Notes: generated by a model from the sequence alone, not told the origin. 64,000 nucleotides of DNA from Vicinamibacterales bacterium (GCA_035463475.1 DATHTE010000133.1:97297-161296), one strand, 5' to 3'. Positions 5,668 to 57,015 are shown, counted from the first letter of the stretch. Translations and numbers: made by a program.

Positions 5668-5669
5668 GG

Positions 5670-5717
5670 CCTTCTGCCTTCTACCTTCTGCCTTCTACCT
5701 TCTGCCCTCTATTCTCC
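5670..5717. repeat. tandem heptamer array (CCTTCTG/CCTTCTA) x6-7; minus-strand reading CAGAAGG/TAGAAGG
   Basis: Read directly: ccttctg ccttcta ccttctg ccttcta ccttctg ccctcta ttctcc; spans the peptidase stop codon (5695-5697) and ends 2 nt before the pyrE ATG. Confidence 0.9.
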
Positions 5718-15987: not shown

Positions 15988-16526
<539 letters not shown>

Positions 16527-16557
16527 GATGCAGGTGGAGGAGCAGGAGGTGTCACGG

Positions 16558-16592
16558 CAGACCTCTTCGCGGCCTCGCTGGACCGCGGTTAA
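16558..16592 (-). promoter_or_regulatory. candidate PyrR-binding RNA hairpin in the pyrR leader
   Basis: Minus-strand RNA reads UUAACCGCGGUCCAGCGAGGCCGCGAAGAGGUCUG: stem CGCGG/CCGCG enclosing UCCAGCGAGG, followed by GAAGAGG; resembles the remembered PyrR binding-loop core (approximately UCCAGAGAGGCU...GAAGG); 32 nt upstream of the pyrR ATG. Confidence 0.6.
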
Positions 16593-16620
16593 AGAGCGAG
16601 GGGGAGTGTATCACACACGT

Positions 16621-16842
16621 CGATCGGGTAACCGGTCATCGCGGAATCGGGGAATCGCACGATCGGGGAATCGGGTAATCGGCAATCGGGTAAATTGGAC
16701 CGGGGAATCGGGGAATCGGGTCATCGTGGGCGCCATAATGCGAGGCGACGGCACGATTACCGATCCCATGGCCCGATTGCCCGCTTACCCGATTACCGAT
16801 CGTGCCATCACCCGATTTACCCGATTATCATTTACCGATCGG
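16621..16842. repeat. about 220-bp dyad-symmetric array of 7-8 nt units (AATCGGG-type on the left arm, CCCGATT-type on the right arm)
   Basis: Read directly: left arm gaatcgg ggaatcg ... ggtaatc ggcaatc gggtaa...; right arm cgattac..cccgattgc..acccgattac..cccgatttacccgatt; ends cgatcgggtaa / ttaccgatcgg are inverted; fills the whole spacer between the AlkP-family gene stop (16843) and the pyrR leader. Confidence 0.9.
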
Positions 16843-18630
16843 CTAGCGTCCGGCCATCAGCGTCTCATACGACCTGATGAACACAATCGGCCTGCTGTCC
16901 GAGAACTCCTTCACGAACAGGTCCGTGCGCGCGAAGCCGTCCATGTCGCGGCCGACGGGGAGCCCGAGGTAATAGAGAATCGTCGGCGCGACGTCCACCA
17001 CCGCGCCGCGCTGGAGCTTGCCGGAACGCACGCGCGCGCCGTACGCGAGCAGAAACCCATCGGGCGCGCGCTCGTGCGTGCCGCTCATCCGCACGTCCCC
17101 GAGCAGCTGCGCCAGCAGGCGCTTCGGCACCGTCATCGGCTCCATGCCGAAGCCCGACACCACGAGCAGGAGATCGTCGGGACCGAGCGTCGCGATCTGG
17201 GCGCCAATCTCGGCGTCGAGAAACGCGTAGTACCGATCGAGCACCGCGCCGTGGCGCCGAACGTCCGCCTCCGAGACGTTGCCGAACGCCCGCGGCATCG
17301 CGTAGCGGAGATACGTGTGCCCGACCGCGTCGATGCCGGCATAGCGGACGGCCAGCAGCCCCGGGCGAATCGACGCCGACAGCTCGCGCGCGAGTCGGCC
17401 GTAGATGCGGTCCCACCGCGCCGGCTGCTCCTGCAGCGGTTCGAGGCCGCTGGCAGAGGCATTGACCGGCACCGGCGCGATCTCCGGGGCCTGCGGCGCG
17501 TCGAAGAACGCGTCACGCGCGGCGGGCAGGACCTCGGCTGGATATGCGACCGTCTCGTCAACCAGCCGCAGCAGCGAACGCGACACCAGGTGCAGGCGAT
17601 CGGAGATCAGGAACCCGCGGATCGGTTGCGCCGGGTACGTCACCGGCCAGCGGACGACGCCGCTCGAGATCCCGCGCGTGGCCAGCAGGCTCCAGAGCGG
17701 ACGCGCGCGCCATGAGGAGGACGAGTGCGGCGCGGCCTGCACGAGGCCGAAGCGGACGAGCGCGTGCGCCAGGCAGTAGTCCGGCAGCAGCTGCACGGCG
17801 TGGGTGCGCGAACGGACGTAATAGAGCGCGCTGCTCGGCACGCCGTTGCGCGGCGGGTACTTGCCGGTGGCGACGGCGGCCCACACCGGCTCCGGCTGCG
17901 TCGGGCGCAGCGTCGCGAGGTCCATCGCCGCGCCACGGTCGAGGATGCGCCCGAAGTTCGGAAACCGGCCCTCCACCGCCCGCGGCCACAAGTAGTCGAG
18001 CGAGGCCCCCTCGAGCAGCACCAGCACGACGCGACCGGCACTGGCCTCCGTGTCCCCCCCGCTCGTGGCGGCCGTGGCGGGCGCCGTGAACGGCTGCGCC
18101 GCAGGTGGCCGCAGCTCACCGAACCCTCGCGCCGCCAGCGGCAACGCCAGCGACGCGCCGAGCGCGAGGCTGAGGATCGCGGCCGCCGCGCGGCTGCCCC
18201 GCCAGCCGATCGAGTACGACGCGATCGCGATCGACAGCAGCACCGCCGCGACGCCGGTCGCGCCGATGGCTCCCGCGGCCATCCCCCGCGCCGCGTCCTC
18301 GCCGATCGCCACCGAGAAGGCGCGCAGGTTCAGCCACATCAGCAGCGCCGCGCCGCCGCAGAGCAACGTGCCGAACCACGCCTGCAGCCGCACGCTGACC
18401 CATGCCGGTCCGCGCACCGGCACGCCGATCACCTCGAGCAGCAGCATCGCCCCGTAGCAGCCCACCGCGAGGTGCACACCATAGAGCGCCGAGAGCGCAG
18501 CGTACCACTCGATCACGACCCGATCGAACACTGGAAGGTGCGGATTCAACTGCAGCAGCAGAATCGTGAGGTACGCGGCGCCGACGAGCCCGGCGATCAA
18601 CGCGTTGGAGAGCAGTCGAAGGTACCGCAC
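16843..18630 (-). CDS. membrane-anchored alkaline-phosphatase-superfamily protein (type I phosphodiesterase/nucleotide pyrophosphatase-like)
   Basis: 595 aa; about 5 N-terminal TM helices, then VVLVLLEGASLDYLWP...TLRPTQPEPVWAAVATGKYPPRNG and DAVGHTY metal-site-like motifs; start codon is GTG. Confidence 0.7.
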   Translation of the reverse strand: MRYLRLLSNALIAGLVGAAYLTILLLQLNPHLPVFDRVVIEWYAALSALYGVHLAVGCYGAMLLLEVIGVPVRGPAWVSVRLQAWFGTLLCGGAALLMWLNLRAFSVAIGEDAARGMAAGAIGATGVAAVLLSIAIASYSIGWRGSRAAAAILSLALGASLALPLAARGFGELRPPAAQPFTAPATAATSGGDTEASAGRVVLVLLEGASLDYLWPRAVEGRFPNFGRILDRGAAMDLATLRPTQPEPVWAAVATGKYPPRNGVPSSALYYVRSRTHAVQLLPDYCLAHALVRFGLVQAAPHSSSSWRARPLWSLLATRGISSGVVRWPVTYPAQPIRGFLISDRLHLVSRSLLRLVDETVAYPAEVLPAARDAFFDAPQAPEIAPVPVNASASGLEPLQEQPARWDRIYGRLARELSASIRPGLLAVRYAGIDAVGHTYLRYAMPRAFGNVSEADVRRHGAVLDRYYAFLDAEIGAQIATLGPDDLLLVVSGFGMEPMTVPKRLLAQLLGDVRMSGTHERAPDGFLLAYGARVRSGKLQRGAVVDVAPTILYYLGLPVGRDMDGFARTDLFVKEFSDSRPIVFIRSYETLMAGR

Positions 18631-27768: not shown

Positions 27769-27777
27769 CGGAAACGA

Positions 27778-27823
27778 GGACAGTCACCAATTGTCCTCTT
27801 CTTGGGACAATTGGTGACTGTCC
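27778..27823. terminator. bidirectional hairpin terminator (19-bp perfect stem)
   Basis: ggacagtcaccaattgtcc (27778-27796) / ggacaattggtgactgtcc (27805-27823), 8-nt loop; lies between convergent stops at 27768 and 27833. Confidence 0.8.
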
Positions 27824-27832
27824 CCGTGCGTT

Positions 27833-43525: not shown

Positions 43526-43574
43526 CGAATGCCGAATACCGAGTGCCGAATGCCGAACGTCGAAGAGCGAGTCG
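43526..43574. repeat. tandem heptamer array CGAATGC-type x7
   Basis: cgaatgc cgaatac cgagtgc cgaatgc cgaacgt cgaagag cgagtcg read directly. Confidence 0.85.
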
Positions 43575-44536: not shown

Positions 44537-44562
44537 GTCGAGCGACGCGCGTCAGTTCTGCG

Positions 44563-44826
44563 TCAGTGCCCGTGCGACTGGCAGTACCCGCAGTGGTTGC
44601 AGCGGACCGCGGGCTCGATGAAGCAGGGGCCGTCGCTCTCCTCGCCGCTGAGCACGTTGTGGCGTGCGTGGCTCGCGTGCCACGCGAGCGGCAGCAGACG
44701 CGGCGCCGAGTACTGGTGCGCCCGCTCCGCGGGGCCCACGGACTGGGCGCGGGCCGACCCGGGCGCGGCGCCCAGGTGCCGCGAGACGACCTCACGGACC
44801 AGCGCGCGAACCGCTTCTTCGTTCAT
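44563..44826 (-). CDS. small Cys/His-rich protein with N-terminal encapsulation-peptide-like helix (BMC-associated, function unknown)
   Basis: 87 aa; MNEEAVRALVREVVSRHLG amphipathic helix, Pro/Ala/Gly linker, C-terminal CFIEPAVRCNHCGYCQSHGH (C-x7-C-x2-C-x2-C plus His); start overlaps the BMC-P stop as ATGA. Confidence 0.6.
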   Translation of the reverse strand: MNEEAVRALVREVVSRHLGAAPGSARAQSVGPAERAHQYSAPRLLPLAWHASHARHNVLSGEESDGPCFIEPAVRCNHCGYCQSHGH

Positions 44827-45101
44827 GCGTCGATTCCCACGTCCACCGCGTCGACGATCCCCACGACCGCGGCGTCGACCGGCGCGGCTTTGCGGCCAAG
44901 GGCGTCCCCCGCCGCCTTCCCCTCGAGCACGACGAGCACCTTCTCGCCCACGCCCGCGCCGACGGAATCGATCGCGAGCACGGTGTTCCCGCGCGGGGCG
45001 CCCGCGAGCGTGAGGGGCTGCACGAGCAGCAGCTTCGCGCCGTGGAGCTTGCGGTGCTTCTGCGTCGAGACCACGGTGCCGACCACGCGCGCGATCTGCA
45101 T
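44823..45101 (-). CDS. BMC-P pentameric vertex protein (EutN/CcmL family), paralog 3
   Basis: Internal start MQIARVVGTVVSTQKHRKLHGAKLLLVQP (codon 89 of the 180-aa track ORF); full EutN-like length of 92 aa. Confidence 0.85.
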   Translation of the reverse strand: MQIARVVGTVVSTQKHRKLHGAKLLLVQPLTLAGAPRGNTVLAIDSVGAGVGEKVLVVLEGKAAGDALGRKAAPVDAAVVGIVDAVDVGIDA

Positions 45102-45105
45102 GCGG

Positions 45106-45381
45106 TCACGCCTGCGGCTGATAGTCCCATTCGTCGACGATGCCGATGATCGCGGCGTCGGTCGGCGGCTCGACGGGATAGAAGGGGAACGCGGCCTCGC
45201 GGCCGCGCACGAAAAACACGCGCTCGCCGACGCCGGCGCCGACCGAGTCGGTGGCGACCAGGGTCTTGCCCACGTCCTGGCCGTCGGCGGCGATGGGTTG
45301 CAGGACCAGGAGCTTGATCGAGACGAGGTTCTCGTCCTTGCGGGTCGCCACCACGTCGCCGACAACGCGCGCGAGCTGCAT
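45106..45381 (-). CDS. BMC-P pentameric vertex protein (EutN/CcmL family), paralog 2
   Basis: 91 aa; [29 protein letters not shown]...ATDSVGAGVGERV. Confidence 0.88.
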   Translation of the reverse strand: MQLARVVGDVVATRKDENLVSIKLLVLQPIAADGQDVGKTLVATDSVGAGVGERVFFVRGREAAFPFYPVEPPTDAAIIGIVDEWDYQPQA

Positions 45382-45650
45382 CAGTCCACCACCTCGATGG
45401 TGTCGATGATGCCGACGATGGCGGCGTCCACCGGGCAGTCCTTCATGCCGGAGGCCATGCGCGCGGAGCTGCCGCTCACGATGAGCACCGTCTCGCCGAC
45501 GCCGGCATCGACGGTGTCTACCGCGACGAGGTAGTTCGCGTCGAGCTTGCCTTTCGGGTCCACGGGGCGGGCCAGCAGGAGCTTGCTGCTCACGAGGCGC
45601 TCGTCCTTCCTCGTGGCGACGACGGTGCCGACGATCTTCGCCAGGATCAC
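45381..45650 (-). CDS. BMC-P pentameric vertex protein (EutN/CcmL family), paralog 1
   Basis: 89 aa; [29 protein letters not shown]...[13 protein letters not shown]. Confidence 0.88.
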
Positions 45651-45973
45651 GCCTTCGCCGTGTTCGCCTTGCCGATCGGCAGCGCGTCCTCGAGGTTGGC
45701 GTGCGGGCGCGGAATGACGTGCACCGACACGAGCTCGCCGACGCGGCGGGCGGCTGCCGCGCCCGCGTCGGTCGCGGCTTTCACGGCGGCGACGTCGCCG
45801 CGGACGATCGCGGTCACGTAGCCGGCGCCGATCTTCTCCCAGCCGACCAGCGTCACCTTGGCGGCCTTGACCATCGCATCGGCCGCTTCGATCATCGCGA
45901 CCAGGCCTTTGGTCTCGATCATCCCCAGCGCTTCACCCATCAGAGCCTCCAGATCGTGCGCACGCGCCCTCAC
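45647..45973 (-). CDS. BMC-H hexameric shell protein (PF00936-type, PduA/EutM/CcmK-like)
   Basis: [58 protein letters not shown]; ATG 45973 overlaps the aldolase stop (ATGA); ATG 45940 ([10 protein letters not shown]) is the more family-typical start. Confidence 0.9.
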
Positions 45974-46830
45974 TTCAGGGCGCGGATCGCATCCTCAATC
46001 AGTGCTGCCAGTTCGCCGTATGTTAGCCGAATTTCCTGATCCGCTCCTAGCGCCGCGGCGGCGGCCAGGCGCGGCCCGCCGGGCGGCACGTCGGCGGCGC
46101 GCACGACCTGGCAGGCGGCGTTCCCCTCGGCCGTGCCGGCGCGCGCGGGCACCTGGTCCGGCGGGCAGATTGGTGCCGGCGACGCGATGCCGTACGTGCC
46201 GCGGAGCCGTTGCAGGCGATCGACCTCCTCGCGCGAGAGCACGCGCTCGCGCCCGAGCAGGCGCGCCACGAGGCTGATTCTCGCGAAGTGCTCGATCGTC
46301 TCCATCTTGTAGTACGCCGCGTACAGCTCGTGCCCCACGGTCAGCGCGCCGTGGTTGGCCAGGAGCAGGCCGTCGTGTGCCTTGATGTATGCCTCGACGG
46401 CGTGCGCCAGCTCCGGCGTCGACGGCGTGCCGTACTCCGCGATGGGAATGCTGCCGAGCGTGGTCACGACCTCGGCGAGGACCGCGCGATCGAGCGGGAT
46501 GCCCGCGACGGCAAAGCCGGTGGCGATCGGCGGGTGCGCGTGCACCACGGCGCTCGCGTCCGGCCGGTTCCGGTAGACCGCCAGGTGCATCAGCAGCTCG
46601 GACGAGGGATCGCGATCGCCGGCGAGTTTCTTGCCCGACATGTCGGTGACGACCATCATGTCGGGTGTCATGAAGCCCTTGGAAACACTCTTGGGGGTCG
46701 CCAGCAGCCGCTGGCCGTCGAGGCGCACGCTGATGTTGCCGTCGTTCGAGGCGCAGTAGCCGCGCGCGTACAACCGGCGGCCGACCTCAACGATCGCCGA
46801 CCGGAGCGCGTCTTCCGGCGTCGGGGCCAT
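45970..46830 (-). CDS. class II aldolase/adducin-family protein with C-terminal encapsulation-peptide-like extension
   Basis: 286 aa; FucA/AraD-like core with Zn ligands (VVHAHP, LANHG); about 70-aa extension ending in the amphipathic helix [20 protein letters not shown] after a Pro/Ala/Gly linker. Confidence 0.85.
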
Positions 46831-47749: not shown

Positions 47750-47758
47750 AAGAAGAAT

Positions 47759-47845
47759 GGGGTCTGACCCTATTTTTACGAGATCCGTAAGTCGGTTCGC
47801 GCGGATAGGCGACTTACGAATCTCGTAAAAATAGGGTCAGACCCC
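47759..47845 (-). terminator. long AT-rich hairpin (about 36-bp stem) between the hydrolase stop and the TPR gene start
   Basis: ggggtctgaccctatttttacgagat (47759-47784) pairs perfectly with atctcgtaaaaatagggtcagacccc (47820-47845); inner ccgtaagtcg/cgacttacga also pair; on the minus strand it is followed by AUUCUUCUUAUG. Confidence 0.7.
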
Positions 47846-47846
47846 A

Positions 47847-48551
47847 TTATAGCGTCCGGTGAAACCACTCGACGAGCATGCGGACGAGATCGCCGGCGCG
47901 CGACAGCATCCTCGTGCCGTGCCCCGCTTCGTCCAGGACGATCTGCTCACGGCTGCCGTTCTTGTCGGCCTTGACGAGGTCGCGGAGGGTCCGCAGCGCG
48001 TAGGCGTCCTCGCGGCTCGCCACGAGCAGCATCGGCCGGGGGCTGTATTTCCGCACGTGCTGATCGATCCTGATCCCGCGATAGTCCATCGTGGGCGAGA
48101 GGAGGGCGAGTGACCGGACGGCCGGATCGCCCGCCGCGTAGGTGACCGCCACGTTGGCGCCGAGCGAGGCGCCCGCCAGGCCGATGCGATCAGCCTGCAC
48201 GTCCGGACGGCTGGCGAGGTACTGTCGCGCCGCGGCCACGTCCTTGATCAACGGCGTCAGGACACCGGAGTCGTCCGCCGACGGCGGGGACTCGCCGTGG
48301 CCGCGGAAGTCGATCGCCAGCGCCGCGATCCCGTCCGCGGCGAGGCGCCCCGCGACCGGTTCCCAGTCCCTCCGGTTCCGCGTGAGCATGTGCAGCAGGA
48401 TCACGGCGGGCGCCGGCCTGCGCGAGGGCTCGAAGAAGGTGGCGGAGATCAGGGCGCCGTCCGCGGCGCGGAACGACACGCGGTGGGTGCGTTGCGCGGC
48501 GGCCGGCAGCGCGAAGACCAGGACCAACGCGGCCGGCAGCGCGCGTCTCAC
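47847..48551 (-). CDS. secreted alpha/beta hydrolase (dienelactone-hydrolase/S9-like)
   Basis: Start at GTG 48551 overlapping the pdxJ stop (GTGA); signal peptide VRRALPAALVLVFALPAAAQ; GASLGA nucleophile elbow, HG motif. Confidence 0.75.
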   Translation of the reverse strand: MRRALPAALVLVFALPAAAQRTHRVSFRAADGALISATFFEPSRRPAPAVILLHMLTRNRRDWEPVAGRLAADGIAALAIDFRGHGESPPSADDSGVLTPLIKDVAAARQYLASRPDVQADRIGLAGASLGANVAVTYAAGDPAVRSLALLSPTMDYRGIRIDQHVRKYSPRPMLLVASREDAYALRTLRDLVKADKNGSREQIVLDEAGHGTRMLSRAGDLVRMLVEWFHRTL

Positions 48552-50641: not shown

Positions 50642-50682
50642 TCAGGGTTCAGGCTTCAGCGTTCAGGATTCAGGTTCAGGGC
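50642..50682. repeat. tandem heptamer array TCAGGGT-type x6
   Basis: tcagggt tcaggct tcagcgt tcaggat tcaggt tcagggc read directly; contains the ybbR-like stop codon (50663-50665). Confidence 0.85.
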
Positions 50683-52158: not shown

Positions 52159-52395
52159 CTATATCCCTCTGAGCTGATCATCGAGCGCCGCGAGCGCCTG
52201 CTCGAGCATCCGCCGGTGCGCGGGGTTGCTGACGCGCTCGAGGTCCGCGAGCAGACGCGCGCGCGACAGTTCGAGCGTGCGGCGCCGATCCAGCCGCTCG
52301 CGCTCCTCCGCCGAGGTCGCAGGACCTGCCGTCGTCTTTCGGGCGGCCTCTTCCTGCTGGGCCTCTACCTGTTTGCTTTCGAAGCCGCGGGCCAT
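52159..52395 (-). CDS. small charged coiled-coil protein, unknown function
   Basis: Start taken at ATG 52395 (MARGFESKQVEAQQEEA); the longer track start 52428 would run into the repeat array. Confidence 0.45.
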   Translation of the reverse strand: MARGFESKQVEAQQEEAARKTTAGPATSAEERERLDRRRTLELSRARLLADLERVSNPAHRRMLEQALAALDDQLRGI

Positions 52396-52414
52396 ACCAG
52401 GCGATTCTAGTCCA

Positions 52415-52496
52415 TCGGTAATTGGCAATCGGGGTCATCGGGTAATCGCACGATCGGGTAATCGGGGAATCGGCAATCGGGTAGTGGGATTACCAG
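52415..52496. repeat. AATCGGG-type heptamer array, second copy of the element at 16621-16842 (left-arm homolog)
   Basis: ggtcatcgggtaatcgcacgatcgggtaatcggggaatcggcaatcgggta here versus ggtcatcgcggaatcggggaatcgcacgatcggggaatcgggtaatcggcaatcgggta at 16634-16692. Confidence 0.85.
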
Positions 52497-53369
52497 TTAC
52501 TCGATGTGCGTGACCTCCCGCCGGATCCGGTCCGCGACGCGGACGACGTCCGCCATGGCTGCTACGCCGTGCACGCGGACGATGTGGGCGCCGAGGAGCA
52601 CGGCGGCGGCCACTGCGGAAGCGGTCGCCCATTCGCGCTGGTCCGGAGAGCGATCGCCGATCGCCTCGTTCAGAAACGACTTGCGCGATGCGCCGATCAG
52701 GATCGGCAGATCGAGCGCCGACAGGGCGTCGAGCCGGGCGAGCGTCGCAAAGCTGTGTTCGGGCCGCTTGGCGAAGCCGAGGCCCGGATCGACGACAATC
52801 TGCCCGCGGGCAATGCCGCAGGAGACGGCAAACGCGACCCGCTGCCCGAGTTCATCCACCACTTCCCGGACCGGATCGTGATAGACCGCGTCCCGGTACA
52901 TGTCCGCGGAGCGGCCGCGCGTGTGCATCAGCACGATGGGCATGCGTCGCCGCGCCGCAATGTCGCCCAGCGCGGGCTCGTAGACGAGCCCGCTGATGTC
53001 GTTGACGATCGAGGCCCCGGCGTCGAACGCCGCGTCCGCCACGTCCGCCTTGTAGGTATCGATCGAAATCGGCACGGAGACGCGTCGCGCGAGCGCCTCG
53101 ATGACCGGTATGACGCGGCGCTTCTCTTCCTCGGTGGACACGGGAACCGCGCCCGGGCGCGTGGACTCCCCACCGACGTCGAGCAGATCCGCCCCGGCGT
53201 CCACCATGGTCAGGCCGGCATCCACCGCCCGCGTGGCATCGAAGTGCGCGCCGCCGTCGGCAAAGGAGTCGGGGGTGATGTTCAGGATCCCCATCACGAG
53301 CGTGCGCGGGCCGAGACGCACCGCATCGCCGTTCGGCAGGGTGAGGGTGTAGGGCTTGCGGGGGAACAC
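52497..53369 (-). CDS. folP: dihydropteroate synthase
   Basis: Start at GTG 53369 (V-FPRKPYTLTLPNG); GILNITPDSFADGG and DVGGESTRPG motifs; upstream part of the 379-aa track ORF is translated repeat array. Confidence 0.88.
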   Translation of the reverse strand: MFPRKPYTLTLPNGDAVRLGPRTLVMGILNITPDSFADGGAHFDATRAVDAGLTMVDAGADLLDVGGESTRPGAVPVSTEEEKRRVIPVIEALARRVSVPISIDTYKADVADAAFDAGASIVNDISGLVYEPALGDIAARRRMPIVLMHTRGRSADMYRDAVYHDPVREVVDELGQRVAFAVSCGIARGQIVVDPGLGFAKRPEHSFATLARLDALSALDLPILIGASRKSFLNEAIGDRSPDQREWATASAVAAAVLLGAHIVRVHGVAAMADVVRVADRIRREVTHIE

Positions 53370-53374
53370 GAACG

Positions 53375-53532
53375 GGTCCGTCCGACAAGGTCCGACAAGG
53401 TTCGATCGGTTCGATCGGTTCGATAGGTTCGACAGGTTCGACAGGTTCCGGGTTCGAGTTCGCCTGAACCCTTCGAACCTATCGAACCTTTCGGACCTTT
53501 CGAACCTTTCGAACTTTTCGAACCGTTCGAAA
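53375..53532. repeat. dyad-symmetric array of 9-10 nt tandem repeats (TTCGAYMGG x about 8, then NTTCGAACC x about 7)
   Basis: Read directly: tccgacaagg x2, ttcgatcgg x2, ttcgatagg, ttcgacagg x2 ... then cttcgaacc tatcgaacc tttcggacc tttcgaacc tttcgaac ttttcgaacc gttcgaaac; fills the ftsH-folP spacer. Confidence 0.9.
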
Positions 53533-55430
<1,898 letters not shown>

Positions 55431-55434
<4 letters not shown>

Positions 55435-56981: not shown

Positions 56982-57015
56982 TCAGGGTTCAGGGTTCGGG
57001 CTCGGGTGCGAGGAT
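56982..57015. repeat. short heptamer array TCAGGGT TCAGGGT TCGGGC TCGGGTG CGAGGAT
   Basis: Read directly between the OMP stop (57017) and the tRNA promoter region; same unit as the array at 50642-50682. Confidence 0.7.

What the first reader, a model, noticed from the sequence alone, without database searches (positions are those of the whole stretch)
53375..53532. 158-bp dyad of 9-nt repeats filling the ftsH-folP spacer
The left arm holds about eight units of TTCGAYMGG (the first two are 10-mers, TCCGACAAGG). The centre is TTCGCCTGAA. The right arm holds about seven units of NTTCGAACC, roughly the reverse complement of the left units. Each unit contains the TTCGAA or TTCGA core. The transcript can fold into a roughly 70-bp periodically mismatched hairpin between two essential genes of one operon. 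In the ORF track it masquerades as protein (FERFEKFERFERSERFDRF..., SNLSNLSNRSNRSNL). A long double-stranded RNA stem at this position would be a natural RNase III processing site or a differential-stability element separating ftsH from folP expression.
Basis: partly seen in the sequence, partly recalled or inferred. Interest (0 to 1): 0.55.

Follow-up and report, generated by a model that had tools for sequence, protein, structure and literature searches.

The report
Tandem-repeat hairpin between ftsH and folP
The spacer between two essential genes of a soil acidobacterium is filled by two opposed runs of a 9-base repeat that fold into one long RNA hairpin, and related species carry the same kind of hairpin at the same gene junction, built from quite different repeat units.

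Summary
Window 53370-53532 is the whole 163-nt ftsH-folP spacer, with both genes on the minus strand. It holds two opposed arrays of 9-nt repeats that fold into a hairpin of about 62 bp (dG -92.8 kcal/mol, z -6.4).

It is not a one-off. The source is a Vicinamibacterales (Acidobacteriota) genome whose intercistronic spacers are commonly filled by 7-9-nt simple-sequence arrays. At least six other arrays lie in this window, including a second dyad at 16527-16842.

Of 68 non-redundant relatives, 25 carry a repeat dyad at the same junction, built from about 15 unrelated unit sequences, and 19 have a spacer under 30 nt. The G-rich arm comes first on the mRNA in 24 of 25 dyads. The hairpin spans the spacer, so the ftsH stop, preceded by an SD-like CAGGAG, sits next to the folP start.

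Best reading: a repeat hairpin of the cyanobacterial-STRR / Xanthomonas-heptamer kind grew inside an originally short, translationally coupled junction and is looped out in the mRNA. RNase III processing is plausible by precedent but untested.

I score it a new member of a known, functionally unexplained class, of moderate interest.

The parts
53533..55434 (-). ftsH (633 aa). It ends ...ACG CAG GAG TAG. The SD-like AGGAG is at 53540-53536 and the stop codon at 53535-53533.
   Evidence: Pfam Peptidase_M41, AAA and FtsH_ext. ORF coordinates. Tail sequence.
53466..53531 (-). 5' arm on the mRNA: 7.3 tandem copies of a 9-nt unit (TTCGAAAGG on the transcript strand). G-rich. It starts 1-3 nt after the ftsH stop codon.
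   Evidence: TRF row 53466-53531, period 9, 85% matches, score 97. Unit list.
53449..53465 (-). Centre (apical loop) of the dyad, containing TTCGCCTGAA on the plus strand.
   Evidence: Sequence. Apical region of the MFE structure.
53398..53448 (-). 3' arm on the mRNA: 5.7 tandem copies of a 9-nt unit (GAACCTGTC / GAACCGATC on the transcript strand). C-rich. It is the imperfect complement of the 5' arm.
   Evidence: TRF row 53398-53448, period 9, 92% matches. Inverted-repeat pairs I1-I9.
53380..53399 (-). Two 10-nt units (CTTGTCGGAC on the transcript). They lie outside the main stem and form a small side hairpin.
   Evidence: TRF row 53380-53405. Direct-repeat family D6. Structure.
53369..53378 (-). 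Closing helix partner (CCCGTTCG plus the first base of the start codon). It pairs with 53520-53529 just after the ftsH stop, which places stop and start side by side.
   Evidence: Inverted repeat I21, 10 nt and 90% complementary. The MFE has 3 unpaired nt after the stop, and the last pair reaches into the start codon.
52497..53369 (-). folP (290 aa, GTG start at 53369-53367).
   Evidence: Pfam Pterin_bind, 8.5e-79. A 290-aa gene call on the identical ENA contig. The N-terminus aligns with relatives.
52413..52483 (-). Same class, single orientation: an 8-nt array (ACCCGATT on the transcript) filling the folP to 78-aa-ORF spacer.
   Evidence: TRF rows. Sequence. Not a hairpin, z +0.4.
50642..50681 (-). 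Same class: a 7-nt array (ACCCTGA on the transcript). It overlaps the ybbR stop and fills the 39-nt ybbR-glmM spacer.
   Evidence: TRF. Sequence. Gene calls.
16527..16842 (-). Second dyad of the same class: 8-nt units (TAATCGGG arm first on the transcript, then TCCCCGAT arm) between a phosphodiesterase-family gene and the hypoxanthine phosphoribosyltransferase gene.
   Evidence: TRF rows 16623-16726 and 16772-16827. Sequence. Fold -139.1 kcal/mol, z -4.6, with the stem starting next to the stop codon.

Best explanation
The element is a pair of opposed long-unit simple-sequence-repeat arrays with 9-nt units. This is the same kind of sequence as cyanobacterial STRR and Xanthomonas/Nostoc heptamer repeats.

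Shown:
- It fills the whole ftsH-folP spacer.
- The transcript strand is predicted to fold into one hairpin of about 62 bp.
- The same architecture recurs at the orthologous junction across Vicinamibacterales, with unrelated unit sequences.
- The G-rich arm comes first on the mRNA.

Inferred:
- The arrays arose and turn over by replication slippage inside a junction that was originally only 0-12 nt long and translationally coupled.
- A self-complementary insertion is tolerated there because it loops out in the polycistronic mRNA.
- The base of the stem puts the ftsH stop codon, and the SD-like CAGGAG formed by the last ftsH codons, next to the folP GTG, which is itself paired.
- A ribosome finishing ftsH therefore melts the stem base and hands over to folP, so coupling is kept despite 163 extra nucleotides.
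- The long duplex may additionally be cut by RNase III or block 3' exonucleases, and repeat number may tune folP output.
For: - Repeat and dyad anatomy.
- Fold: dG -92.8 kcal/mol, z -6.4.
- Operon context without promoter or terminator motifs.
- The only spacers in this operon longer than 15 nt (163, 101 and 39 nt) are the three that hold repeat arrays.
- Orthologous junction in 68 non-redundant relatives: 25 repeat dyads, 19 spacers under 30 nt, 8 single or weak arrays.
- About 15 different unit families occur, for example GGAATTN, GGGAAAA, AGAAGTC, GGTTCCG, GAGTTGT and GGTCGTT. Arm complementarity is kept while the sequence is replaced.
- Within the GGAATTN family, 6 of 25 consensus pairs show compensatory double changes.
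- Dyads are favoured at this junction over the next one: 25 dyad to 8 single here, against 5 to 11 at folP-cdaA. Fisher p = 0.005, or 0.0009 after collapsing near-identical strains.
- In most dyads the stem leaves 0-8 nt after the stop and -3 to 7 nt before the start. Nearly all relatives end ftsH with CAGGAG or CAGGAA plus a stop. The SD-to-start distance, ignoring the hairpin, is 1-12 nt in 20 of the 25 dyads, like the real 3-15 nt in most short-spacer lineages.
- Slippage dynamics: near-identical strains differ in copy number. L143, L131 and L144 have 94, 80 and 73 nt at the folP-cdaA dyad, and L149 versus L159 have 5 versus 6 units.
- Polarity: the 5' arm has G>C in 24 of 25 dyads. Over all co-directional spacers, arrays nearer the stop are G-rich (27:9) and arrays nearer the start are C-rich (13:32), p = 5e-5. 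Without the ftsH-folP spacers p = 0.016.
- This is the same positional rule published for Xanthomonas/Nostoc heptamers (PMC4692102).
- STRR hairpins between hupS and hupL have been proposed to act in transcript stability or translational coupling (PMC2670836).
Against: - No expression, end-mapping or translation data exist for this organism.
- The stop-start juxtaposition is also the automatic result of a repeat growing in place inside a short spacer. It shows tolerance, not function.
- The test for the selected strand was inconclusive. Sense and antisense folds are about equally stable here (-86.9 versus -89.1 kcal/mol), and G.U pairs favour the sense strand in some families and the antisense strand in others.
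- Counts are not phylogenetically corrected, and many GGAATTN cases are related.
- folP start codons in relatives were assigned by alignment plus the nearest in-frame start codon.
- Five dyads (L007, L019, L105, L109, L115) leave 18-52 nt between the SD-like motif and the start.
- The second dyad in the window (16527-16842) ends about 90 nt before the next start codon. Juxtaposition is therefore not a general property of the class.
Confidence: 0.5

Rival explanations
1. RNase III processing site or differential-stability element. The long duplex is cleaved, or it blocks 3'-to-5' exonucleases. That would uncouple ftsH and folP mRNA levels, as REP/BIME hairpins do in E. coli operons.
For: - A predicted hairpin of about 62 bp with a 17-bp perfect core.
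- Hairpin potential is conserved at the junction in 25 of 68 relatives.
- Experimental precedent: a transcribed heptamer-repeat hairpin is processed by RNase III, and this changes expression in H. influenzae (PMC12721329).
- Transcript stability has been proposed for STRR hairpins (PMC2670836).
- This reading is compatible with the main explanation rather than exclusive of it.
Against: - It is untestable with sequence alone.
- 19 of 68 relatives have a spacer under 30 nt (0-2 nt in eleven of them), which argues for tight co-expression rather than uncoupling as the ancestral state.
- It does not explain the G-first polarity or why the stem base abuts the stop and start codons.
- Periodic internal loops shorten the continuous duplex.
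Confidence: 0.2
2. Functionless by-product of mutation. Polymerase slippage on 7-9-nt units, plus hairpin-templated strand switching (quasi-palindrome correction), creates inverted arrays and keeps them complementary at the DNA level. They persist only because spacers are permissive.
For: - Copy number differs between near-identical strains.
- Unit sequences turn over completely between species.
- Many arrays are single-orientation and unstructured.
- Both strands fold equally well.
- Nested mirrored unit families in L105 and L100 look like copying of one arm from the other.
- A slippage origin has been proposed for heptamer excess, and no function was found in Xanthomonas/Nostoc (PMC4692102).
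Against: - Dyads are enriched at this junction relative to the neighbouring one.
- There is a consistent transcription-oriented G-then-C polarity.
- Arrays stop within a few nucleotides of stop and start codons.
- These features suggest constraints beyond neutrality, although strand-biased mutation could produce the polarity.
Confidence: 0.25
3. The arrays are an array of binding sites for a sequence-specific factor, or a non-B DNA/RNA element. Candidates are Rho loading on the C-rich arm, ribosomal protein S1/Csp/CsrA-type binding as proposed for TAACTGA repeats, or G-quadruplexes as proposed for GGGAATC repeats.
For: - Within one genome the same unit recurs at different spacers: L001 GGTGAATT at two dyads, L010 AATTCCT at four arrays, and in this window GGGNAATC at two loci and ACCCTGA at two loci.
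- C-rich, G-poor arrays lie just upstream of start codons.
- The published proposals are in PMC4679880 and PMC4692102.
Against: - The 9-nt unit of this dyad occurs nowhere else in the 64-kb window.
- It has only GG runs, so a stable G-quadruplex is unlikely.
- In a dyad both arms would be sequestered in the duplex.
- No candidate factor was identified.
Confidence: 0.05

Closest known systems
[quoted passage not shown]
   Same: Both are tandem short units in intergenic spacers of operons. Inverted arrays form a long intercistronic hairpin. Function is unknown, with proposed roles in transcript stability or translational coupling (PMC2670836).
   Different: The phylum differs (Acidobacteriota, order Vicinamibacterales). 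The unit here is 9 nt rather than 7, although 7 nt dominates in relatives. Here the dyad recurs at one orthologous junction across an order with unit turnover, and it spans the spacer from stop to start. I found neither point described for STRR.
GGGAATC / GGGGA(C/T)T heptamer repeats of Xanthomonas and Nostoc (Rehm et al. 2015, PMC4692102)
   Same: - Both are abundant in non-coding DNA, preferentially between co-directional ORFs.
[quoted passage not shown] That is the same G-then-C polarity found here.
- Both are transcribed, vary in copy number and have no function identified.
- Inverted copies may form stem-loops.
- The 8-mers GGGNAATC at 16527-16842 and 52413-52483 in this window are almost the same motif.
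   Different: The ftsH-folP unit (TTCGAAAGG) has no G3 tract, so the quadruplex idea does not apply. The dyad, not the single array, is the recurrent form at this junction.
TAACTGA intergenic direct repeats of marine Beggiatoaceae (MacGregor 2015, PMC4679880)
   Same: Both are heptamer arrays ending a few nucleotides before start codons of genes without a recognisable Shine-Dalgarno sequence, including essential genes. A role in translation initiation has been proposed.
   Different: TAACTGA is one unit sequence genome-wide and almost always direct: 169 direct sets against one indirect. Here there are many unit families and an inverted arrangement.
Haemophilus influenzae hmw 5'-UTR (ATCTTTC)n hairpin processed by RNase III (PMC12721329)
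   Same: Both are transcribed long-unit repeats forming one arm of a long RNA hairpin. Experimentally, RNase III cleaves that hairpin, and the hairpin is needed for expression and for copy-number change.
   Different: It is in a 5'-UTR of a phase-variable adhesin, not an intercistronic spacer of housekeeping genes. Only one arm is repetitive, and the polarity is reversed (pyrimidine-rich repeat arm first, G-rich arm second).
REP/BIME/REPIN elements and mycobacterial MIRU (from my own knowledge, not checked here)
   Same: Both are intergenic, often intercistronic, elements in operons. REP hairpins stabilise upstream mRNA. MIRUs are tandem repeats arranged so that stop and start codons of flanking genes are coupled.
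   Different: REPs are dispersed 20-40-nt palindromes with hundreds of near-identical copies and an associated transposase. MIRUs have 40-100-nt units carrying small ORFs. Neither is a dyad of 7-9-nt units, and the unit here is unique to this locus within 64 kb.

Membership tests
Long-unit simple sequence repeats of prokaryotic intergenic regions (units of about 5-11 nt; class surveyed by Mrazek et al. 2007 as cited in PMC4692102) | Head-to-tail tandem copies of a short unit, three or more copies, with no spacers between copies | tested here: met
   7.3 and 5.7 copies of 9-nt units plus 2.6 copies of a 10-nt unit.
Long-unit simple sequence repeats of prokaryotic intergenic regions | Non-coding location, preferentially between co-directional ORFs and close to the stop or start codon | tested here: met
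   Fills the 163-nt spacer between ftsH and folP, both on the minus strand. In relatives, 82 of 92 intergenic arrays lie between co-directional genes.
Long-unit simple sequence repeats of prokaryotic intergenic regions | Strand rule reported for Xanthomonas/Nostoc: G-rich on the coding strand after the stop, C-rich on the coding strand before the start | tested here: met
   The 5' arm has G>C by 13 here, and G>C holds in 24 of 25 dyads. Over all spacers the split is 27:9 against 13:32, p = 5e-5.
Long-unit simple sequence repeats of prokaryotic intergenic regions | Copy-number variation between close strains (slippage) | tested here: inconclusive
   No close relative of this genome was found: best folP identity was 66-67% in both collections. 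Variation is seen in related lineages: L143, L131 and L144, and L149 versus L159.
Cyanobacterial STRR | Heptanucleotide unit | tested here: not met
   The unit here is 9 nt (10 nt for two outer copies). Heptamers dominate in relatives, 55 of 82 arrays.
Cyanobacterial STRR | Occurrence in filamentous, heterocyst-forming cyanobacteria | tested here: not met
   The nearest relatives are Vicinamibacterales / Acidobacteriota MAGs.
REP / BIME / REPIN | A conserved 20-40-nt imperfect palindrome dispersed in many copies through the genome | tested here: not met
   The unit is 9 nt, and a two-unit probe matches only this locus, apart from one 3-mismatch hit, in 64 kb. Units differ completely between orthologous spacers.
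Intrinsic (Rho-independent) terminator | Short G+C-rich stem-loop followed by a U tract | tested here: not met
   No terminator-like site in 52300-53700 on either strand. The 3' arm is followed by ...GGACCCGTTC GTG, with no T run.
CRISPR array | Direct repeats of 24-48 nt separated by unique spacers of similar length | tested here: not met
   The units are 9 nt and contiguous, with start-to-start spacing of 9.
Any curated RNA family (Rfam 15) | Covariance-model match at or above the gathering score | tested here: not met
   Only a tRNA in the whole window. In 53300-53600 the only matches are chance hits to miRNA hairpin models, 17-20 bits against thresholds of 61-82.
RNase III-processed repeat hairpin (H. 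influenzae hmw type) | Transcribed repeat forms a long duplex | tested here: met
   Prediction only: about 62 bp, dG -92.8 kcal/mol, z -6.4.
RNase III-processed repeat hairpin (H. influenzae hmw type) | Cleavage by RNase III with an effect on expression | not testable with these tools
   Needs end mapping or in vitro cleavage.
G-quadruplex-forming GGGNATC repeats | Four or more consecutive tracts of three or more G | tested here: not met
   The units TTCGAAAGG and GAACCTGTC carry at most GG, with one GGG. The 8-mer arrays at 16527-16842 and 52413-52483 do carry GGG or GGGG tracts.

The most novel reading that the evidence does not exclude
Repeat dyads in Vicinamibacterales may be selected coupling devices rather than tolerated junk. 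In this reading the hairpin sequesters the start codon of an SD-less downstream gene, and only a ribosome terminating on the upstream gene opens it. Slippage in either arm would then give heritable, reversible tuning of the ftsH:folP ratio. The genome-specific unit families shared between unlinked spacers would point to an unknown spreading or recognition mechanism. The orthologous-junction series found here would be the first comparative handle on what STRR-like repeats do, a question open since 1990.
Probability: 0.2. Interest if true: 0.7.

Novelty: new member of a known kind. Interest (0 to 1): 0.5.

Why it matters
Short tandem repeats of 7-9 nt that crowd bacterial intergenic spacers have been known for decades in cyanobacteria (STRR), Xanthomonas and Beggiatoa, without an accepted function.

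This locus extends the phenomenon to Vicinamibacterales, a group of soil Acidobacteriota represented here almost entirely by uncultured metagenome genomes. My full-text searches found no description of it there.

It also offers a natural experiment. One conserved junction between two essential genes exists in three states across the order: no spacer, repeat hairpin, and other. About 15 independent repeat sequences all keep the same fold, the same G-then-C polarity and the same stop-to-start geometry.

That makes specific hypotheses testable with reporters and metatranscriptomes: translational coupling through a looped-out hairpin, RNase III processing, or pure mutational by-product.

Practically, 9-nt periods keep reading frames open. 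They create spurious ORFs, here a false 379-aa 'extended folP' (52497-53636), and they are assembly hazards.

Tried and rejected
- Strand test. I asked whether stem imperfections are G.U on the sense strand (RNA selection) rather than on the antisense strand. The result was mixed across families, and the two strands are equal in the window, so it is inconclusive.
- Close relatives for micro-evolution of this exact dyad. The exact-protein look-up returned only the source metagenome contig, which is identical.
- Coding readings. The folP frame is open through the spacer back to an ATG at 53636 inside ftsH, but there is no ATG, GTG or TTG in frame within the spacer. The ftsH frame hits a second stop after 17 codons. 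Most relatives use 7-nt units that cannot stay in frame. Rejected.
- Intrinsic terminator or promoter: none found.
- Rfam: nothing real.
- REP/MITE-type dispersed element: the unit is not found elsewhere in the window.
- G-quadruplex: no G3 tracts in this unit.
- My first two GC3-based gene callers mis-called genes around repeats. I replaced them with tblastn-anchored boundaries and a refined caller used only for the polarity census.
- Literature searches combining Vicinamibacter or Acidobacteria with tandem, intergenic or hairpin terms returned nothing.

Full report
**What is in the sequence**

Window 53370-53532 is the complete 163-nt spacer between ftsH (55434-53533) and folP (53369-52497, GTG start). 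Both genes are on the minus strand.

The folP start matches the 290-aa gene call on an ENA metagenome contig (ERZ27272645 k141_777275). That contig is base-for-base identical over the spacer.

Tandem Repeats Finder reports three arrays:
- 2.6 copies of a 10-mer at 53380-53405
- 5.7 copies of a 9-mer at 53398-53448 (92% matches)
- 7.3 copies of a 9-mer at 53466-53531 (85% matches)

The repeat finder shows that the two 9-mer arrays are inverted copies: 55-nt arms, 80% complementary, 11 nt apart. On the transcript strand the order is:
- ftsH stop
- seven TTCGAAAGG-type units
- a 17-nt centre
- six GAACC(T/G)(G/A)TC units
- two CTTGTCGGAC units
- CCCGTTC
- GTG

A two-unit probe finds 12 matches here and one elsewhere in 64 kb, against 0.37 expected.

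The transcript strand folds at -92.8 kcal/mol, with z -6.4 against dinucleotide shuffles. The other strand folds equally well. The exact spacer forms 62 pairs. Two small corrections apply: the gene strand, and stem length (62 bp, not about 70).

**Context: not a singular element**

The gene order on the minus strand is tRNA-Met, tilS, ftsH, folP, a 78-aa ORF, cdaA, ybbR, glmM, pdxJ. Most neighbours overlap or are at most 15 nt apart.

The three longer spacers are exactly the three that hold short-period arrays:
- 163 nt: this dyad
- 101 nt: 8-mers ACCCGATT, 52413-52483
- 39 nt: 7-mers ACCCTGA, 50642-50681

Elsewhere the window has:
- 7-mers at 5669-5711, 43526-43557 and 56982-57010
- a second dyad of 8-mers at 16527-16842

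The second dyad folds at -139 kcal/mol (z -4.6), starting next to the upstream stop codon.

No Rfam family, promoter motif or terminator motif accounts for the ftsH-folP element.

**Organism and relatives**

FolP's nearest relatives are Vicinamibacterales / Acidobacteriota MAGs at no more than 67% identity. JGI soil metagenome contigs reach no more than 66%. No close relative was available.

I anchored ftsH ends and folP starts by tblastn. I then classified 68 non-redundant spacers from this clade:

| Class | Count |
|---|---|
| Repeat dyads (a 6-12-nt tandem array plus fold z <= -4) | 25 |
| Spacers under 30 nt (0-2 nt in eleven) | 19 |
| Single or weak arrays | 8 |
| Hairpins without repeats | 2 |
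| Other | 14 |

The dyads use about 15 unrelated unit families:
- GGAATTN / NAATTCC
- GGGAAAA / TTTTCCC
- ACAATTT / GAATTGT
- AGAAGTC / GACTTCT
- GGTTCCG / CGGAACC
- GAGTTGT
- GGTCGTT
- GTCGTCA
- TGGTGAA
- AAGGGGY
- nested two-family dyads in L105 and L100

Outgroup phyla in the same scan have overlapping genes, plain hairpins or ordinary terminators at this junction. Array density is 2.8 per 10 kb in the clade against 0.8 elsewhere.

So the architecture is conserved while the sequence is replaced. Within the GGAATTN family, 6 of 25 consensus pairs show compensatory double changes. Repeat alignments are register-ambiguous, so I treat this as modest support.

**Regularities that constrain the mechanism**

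1. Polarity.
   - The 5' arm on the mRNA has G>C in 24 of 25 dyads, about 14 of 15 unit families (sign test p = 0.001).
   - Over all arrays between co-directional genes in these loci, those nearer the stop are G-rich (27:9). Those nearer the start are C-rich (13:32). Fisher p = 5e-5, or p = 0.016 without the ftsH-folP spacers.
   - This is the positional rule published for Xanthomonas/Nostoc heptamers (PMC4692102).

2. Position-specific form.
   - At ftsH-folP, dyads outnumber single arrays 25:8.
   - At the next junction (folP-cdaA) the ratio is 5:11, p = 0.005.

3. Geometry.
   - In most dyads the stem leaves 0-8 nt after the stop and -3 to 7 nt before the start.
   - In the window, 53520-53529 pairs with 53369-53378, so the GTG is in the closing helix.
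   - With flanks included, the last ftsH codons (CACGCAGGAG) pair with the folP start region.

4. SD-like tail.
   - Nearly all relatives end ftsH with CAGGAG or CAGGAA plus a stop.
   - In most short-spacer lineages this motif lies 3-15 nt before the folP start.
   - In 20 of the 25 dyad lineages the same distance, skipping the hairpin, is 1-12 nt. The sequence just before folP has no good SD of its own.

5. Dynamics.
   - Near-identical strains differ by whole units.
   - Units are shared between unlinked spacers of one genome: L001, L010 and this window.
   - Heptamers dominate, 55 of 82 arrays.

**Interpretation**

Shown: this is a transcription-oriented, expansion-prone inverted pair of long-unit simple sequence repeats. 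It is predicted to form one long hairpin, and it is one of many such arrays in this lineage.

Inferred, and my best explanation at about 0.5:
- The ancestral junction was short and translationally coupled.
- Repeats grew in place by slippage.
- The self-complementary form is what survives here because it loops out. That keeps the ftsH stop and SD-like tail next to a sequestered folP start, so a terminating ribosome opens the stem base and hands over to folP.

The geometry is also what in-place growth would give automatically. It therefore demonstrates tolerance more firmly than function.

It is untested here, and it explains neither the polarity nor the many lineages with a very short spacer.

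A purely mutational by-product (about 0.25) fits several points:
- the copy-number polymorphism
- the equal stability of both strands
- the mirrored nested units
- the lack of any function found in Xanthomonas/Nostoc

It has to invoke strand-biased mutation for the polarity, and it leaves the junction-specific dyad excess unexplained.

Protein-binding, Rho or G-quadruplex readings are weak for this unit (about 0.05).

**Comparison with known systems**

It works like cyanobacterial STRR hairpins such as hupS-hupL (PMC2670836). It follows the placement rule of Xanthomonas/Nostoc GGGAATC repeats (PMC4692102). It shares the 'repeat instead of SD' situation of Beggiatoaceae TAACTGA repeats (PMC4679880).

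It is not an STRR by definition (9-nt unit, non-cyanobacterial). It is also not a REP/REPIN, CRISPR array, terminator or Rfam family. Each of these was tested and not met.

I therefore file it as a new member of the known class of intergenic long-unit repeat arrays. Full-text searches found no report of the class in Vicinamibacteria or Acidobacteria. Those searches cover only open-access papers and bioRxiv.

**Limits**

- There are no expression data.
- The counts are not phylogenetically corrected.
- Start codons in relatives are inferred.
- The sequence is a metagenome assembly, so exact copy number is uncertain.
- There is no close relative for this particular 9-mer dyad.

Noticed in passing
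window 16527-16842 (minus-strand spacer between the gene ending at 16843 and hpt starting at 16526): A second, larger dyad built from 8-nt units GGGNAATC / GATTNCCC (about 11 and 7 copies). It is almost the motif of the Xanthomonas GGGAATC quadruplex-forming heptamers and carries G3-G4 tracts. It folds at -139 kcal/mol (z -4.6), G-rich arm first on the transcript. About 90 nt of ordinary sequence follow before the ATG.
   Followed up: partly
window 52413-52483, and L001 8462-8495: The same GGGNAATC-type 8-mer (ACCCGATT on the transcript) fills the folP to 78-aa-ORF spacer in single orientation and does not fold (z +0.4). An ATCGGGTA array also occurs in a different species (L001). Some unit families are therefore shared across genomes as well as within them.
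   Followed up: partly
window 50642-50681 and 56982-57010: Heptamer ACCCTGA (on the transcript strand) occurs at two unlinked places. One overlaps the ybbR stop, just before glmM. The other lies between a DUF5916-family gene and tRNA-Met. In relatives, many units just upstream of start codons contain CTGA, TGA or TAA (GCCCTGA, CGACTGA, AATCTGA, GCCCTAA), which puts stop codons in all three frames.
   Followed up: no
window 5669-5711: (AGAAGGY)n on the transcript strand overlaps the stop codon of the upstream gene (5695-5697) and ends 1 nt before the ATG of the downstream gene (5667). It is a run of SD-like GAAGG motifs in a 27-nt junction.
   Followed up: no
window 47756-47848 (also L081 6214-6300): A 39-nt inverted repeat, 97% complementary, with a 15-nt loop (AATGGGGTCTGACCCTATTTTTACGAGATCCGTAAGTCG...). 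It is not made of tandem repeats. L011 has a different long palindrome beginning GGGGTCACG upstream of folP. This may be a separate REP- or MITE-like hairpin family in these genomes.
   Followed up: partly
window 27774-27827: A 23-nt inverted repeat, 96% complementary, with an 8-nt loop (ACGAGGACAGTCACCAATTGTCC...) at the end of a plus-strand gene. It may be a terminator-like hairpin without a clear T tract.
   Followed up: no
window 52497-53636 (minus): Because the repeat period is 9, the folP frame stays open through the whole spacer back to an ATG inside ftsH. This gives a spurious 379-aa ORF. Naive ORF- or GC3-based gene callers mis-place the folP start here.
   Followed up: yes
window about 44560-46830 (L081 7229-9496): A bacterial microcompartment cluster: class II aldolase, one BMC-domain shell protein, three EutN/CcmL vertex proteins and a small unknown ORF. 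It lies downstream of the glmM-pdxJ operon.
   Followed up: no
window 52159-52395 (minus): A 78-aa ORF with no Pfam match (MARGFESKQVEAQQEE..., Arg/Glu/Leu-rich) lies between folP and cdaA. It is called as a gene on the ENA contig. tblastn found it in no other locus, where cdaA usually follows folP directly.
   Followed up: partly
L143 1739-1833, L131 3148-3227, L144 1738-1810 (folP-cdaA spacer): Three contigs with identical ftsH-folP spacers differ at the next spacer's TGGCTGA / GCCATCA dyad (94, 80 and 73 nt). This is direct evidence of unit gain and loss between very close strains.
   Followed up: partly
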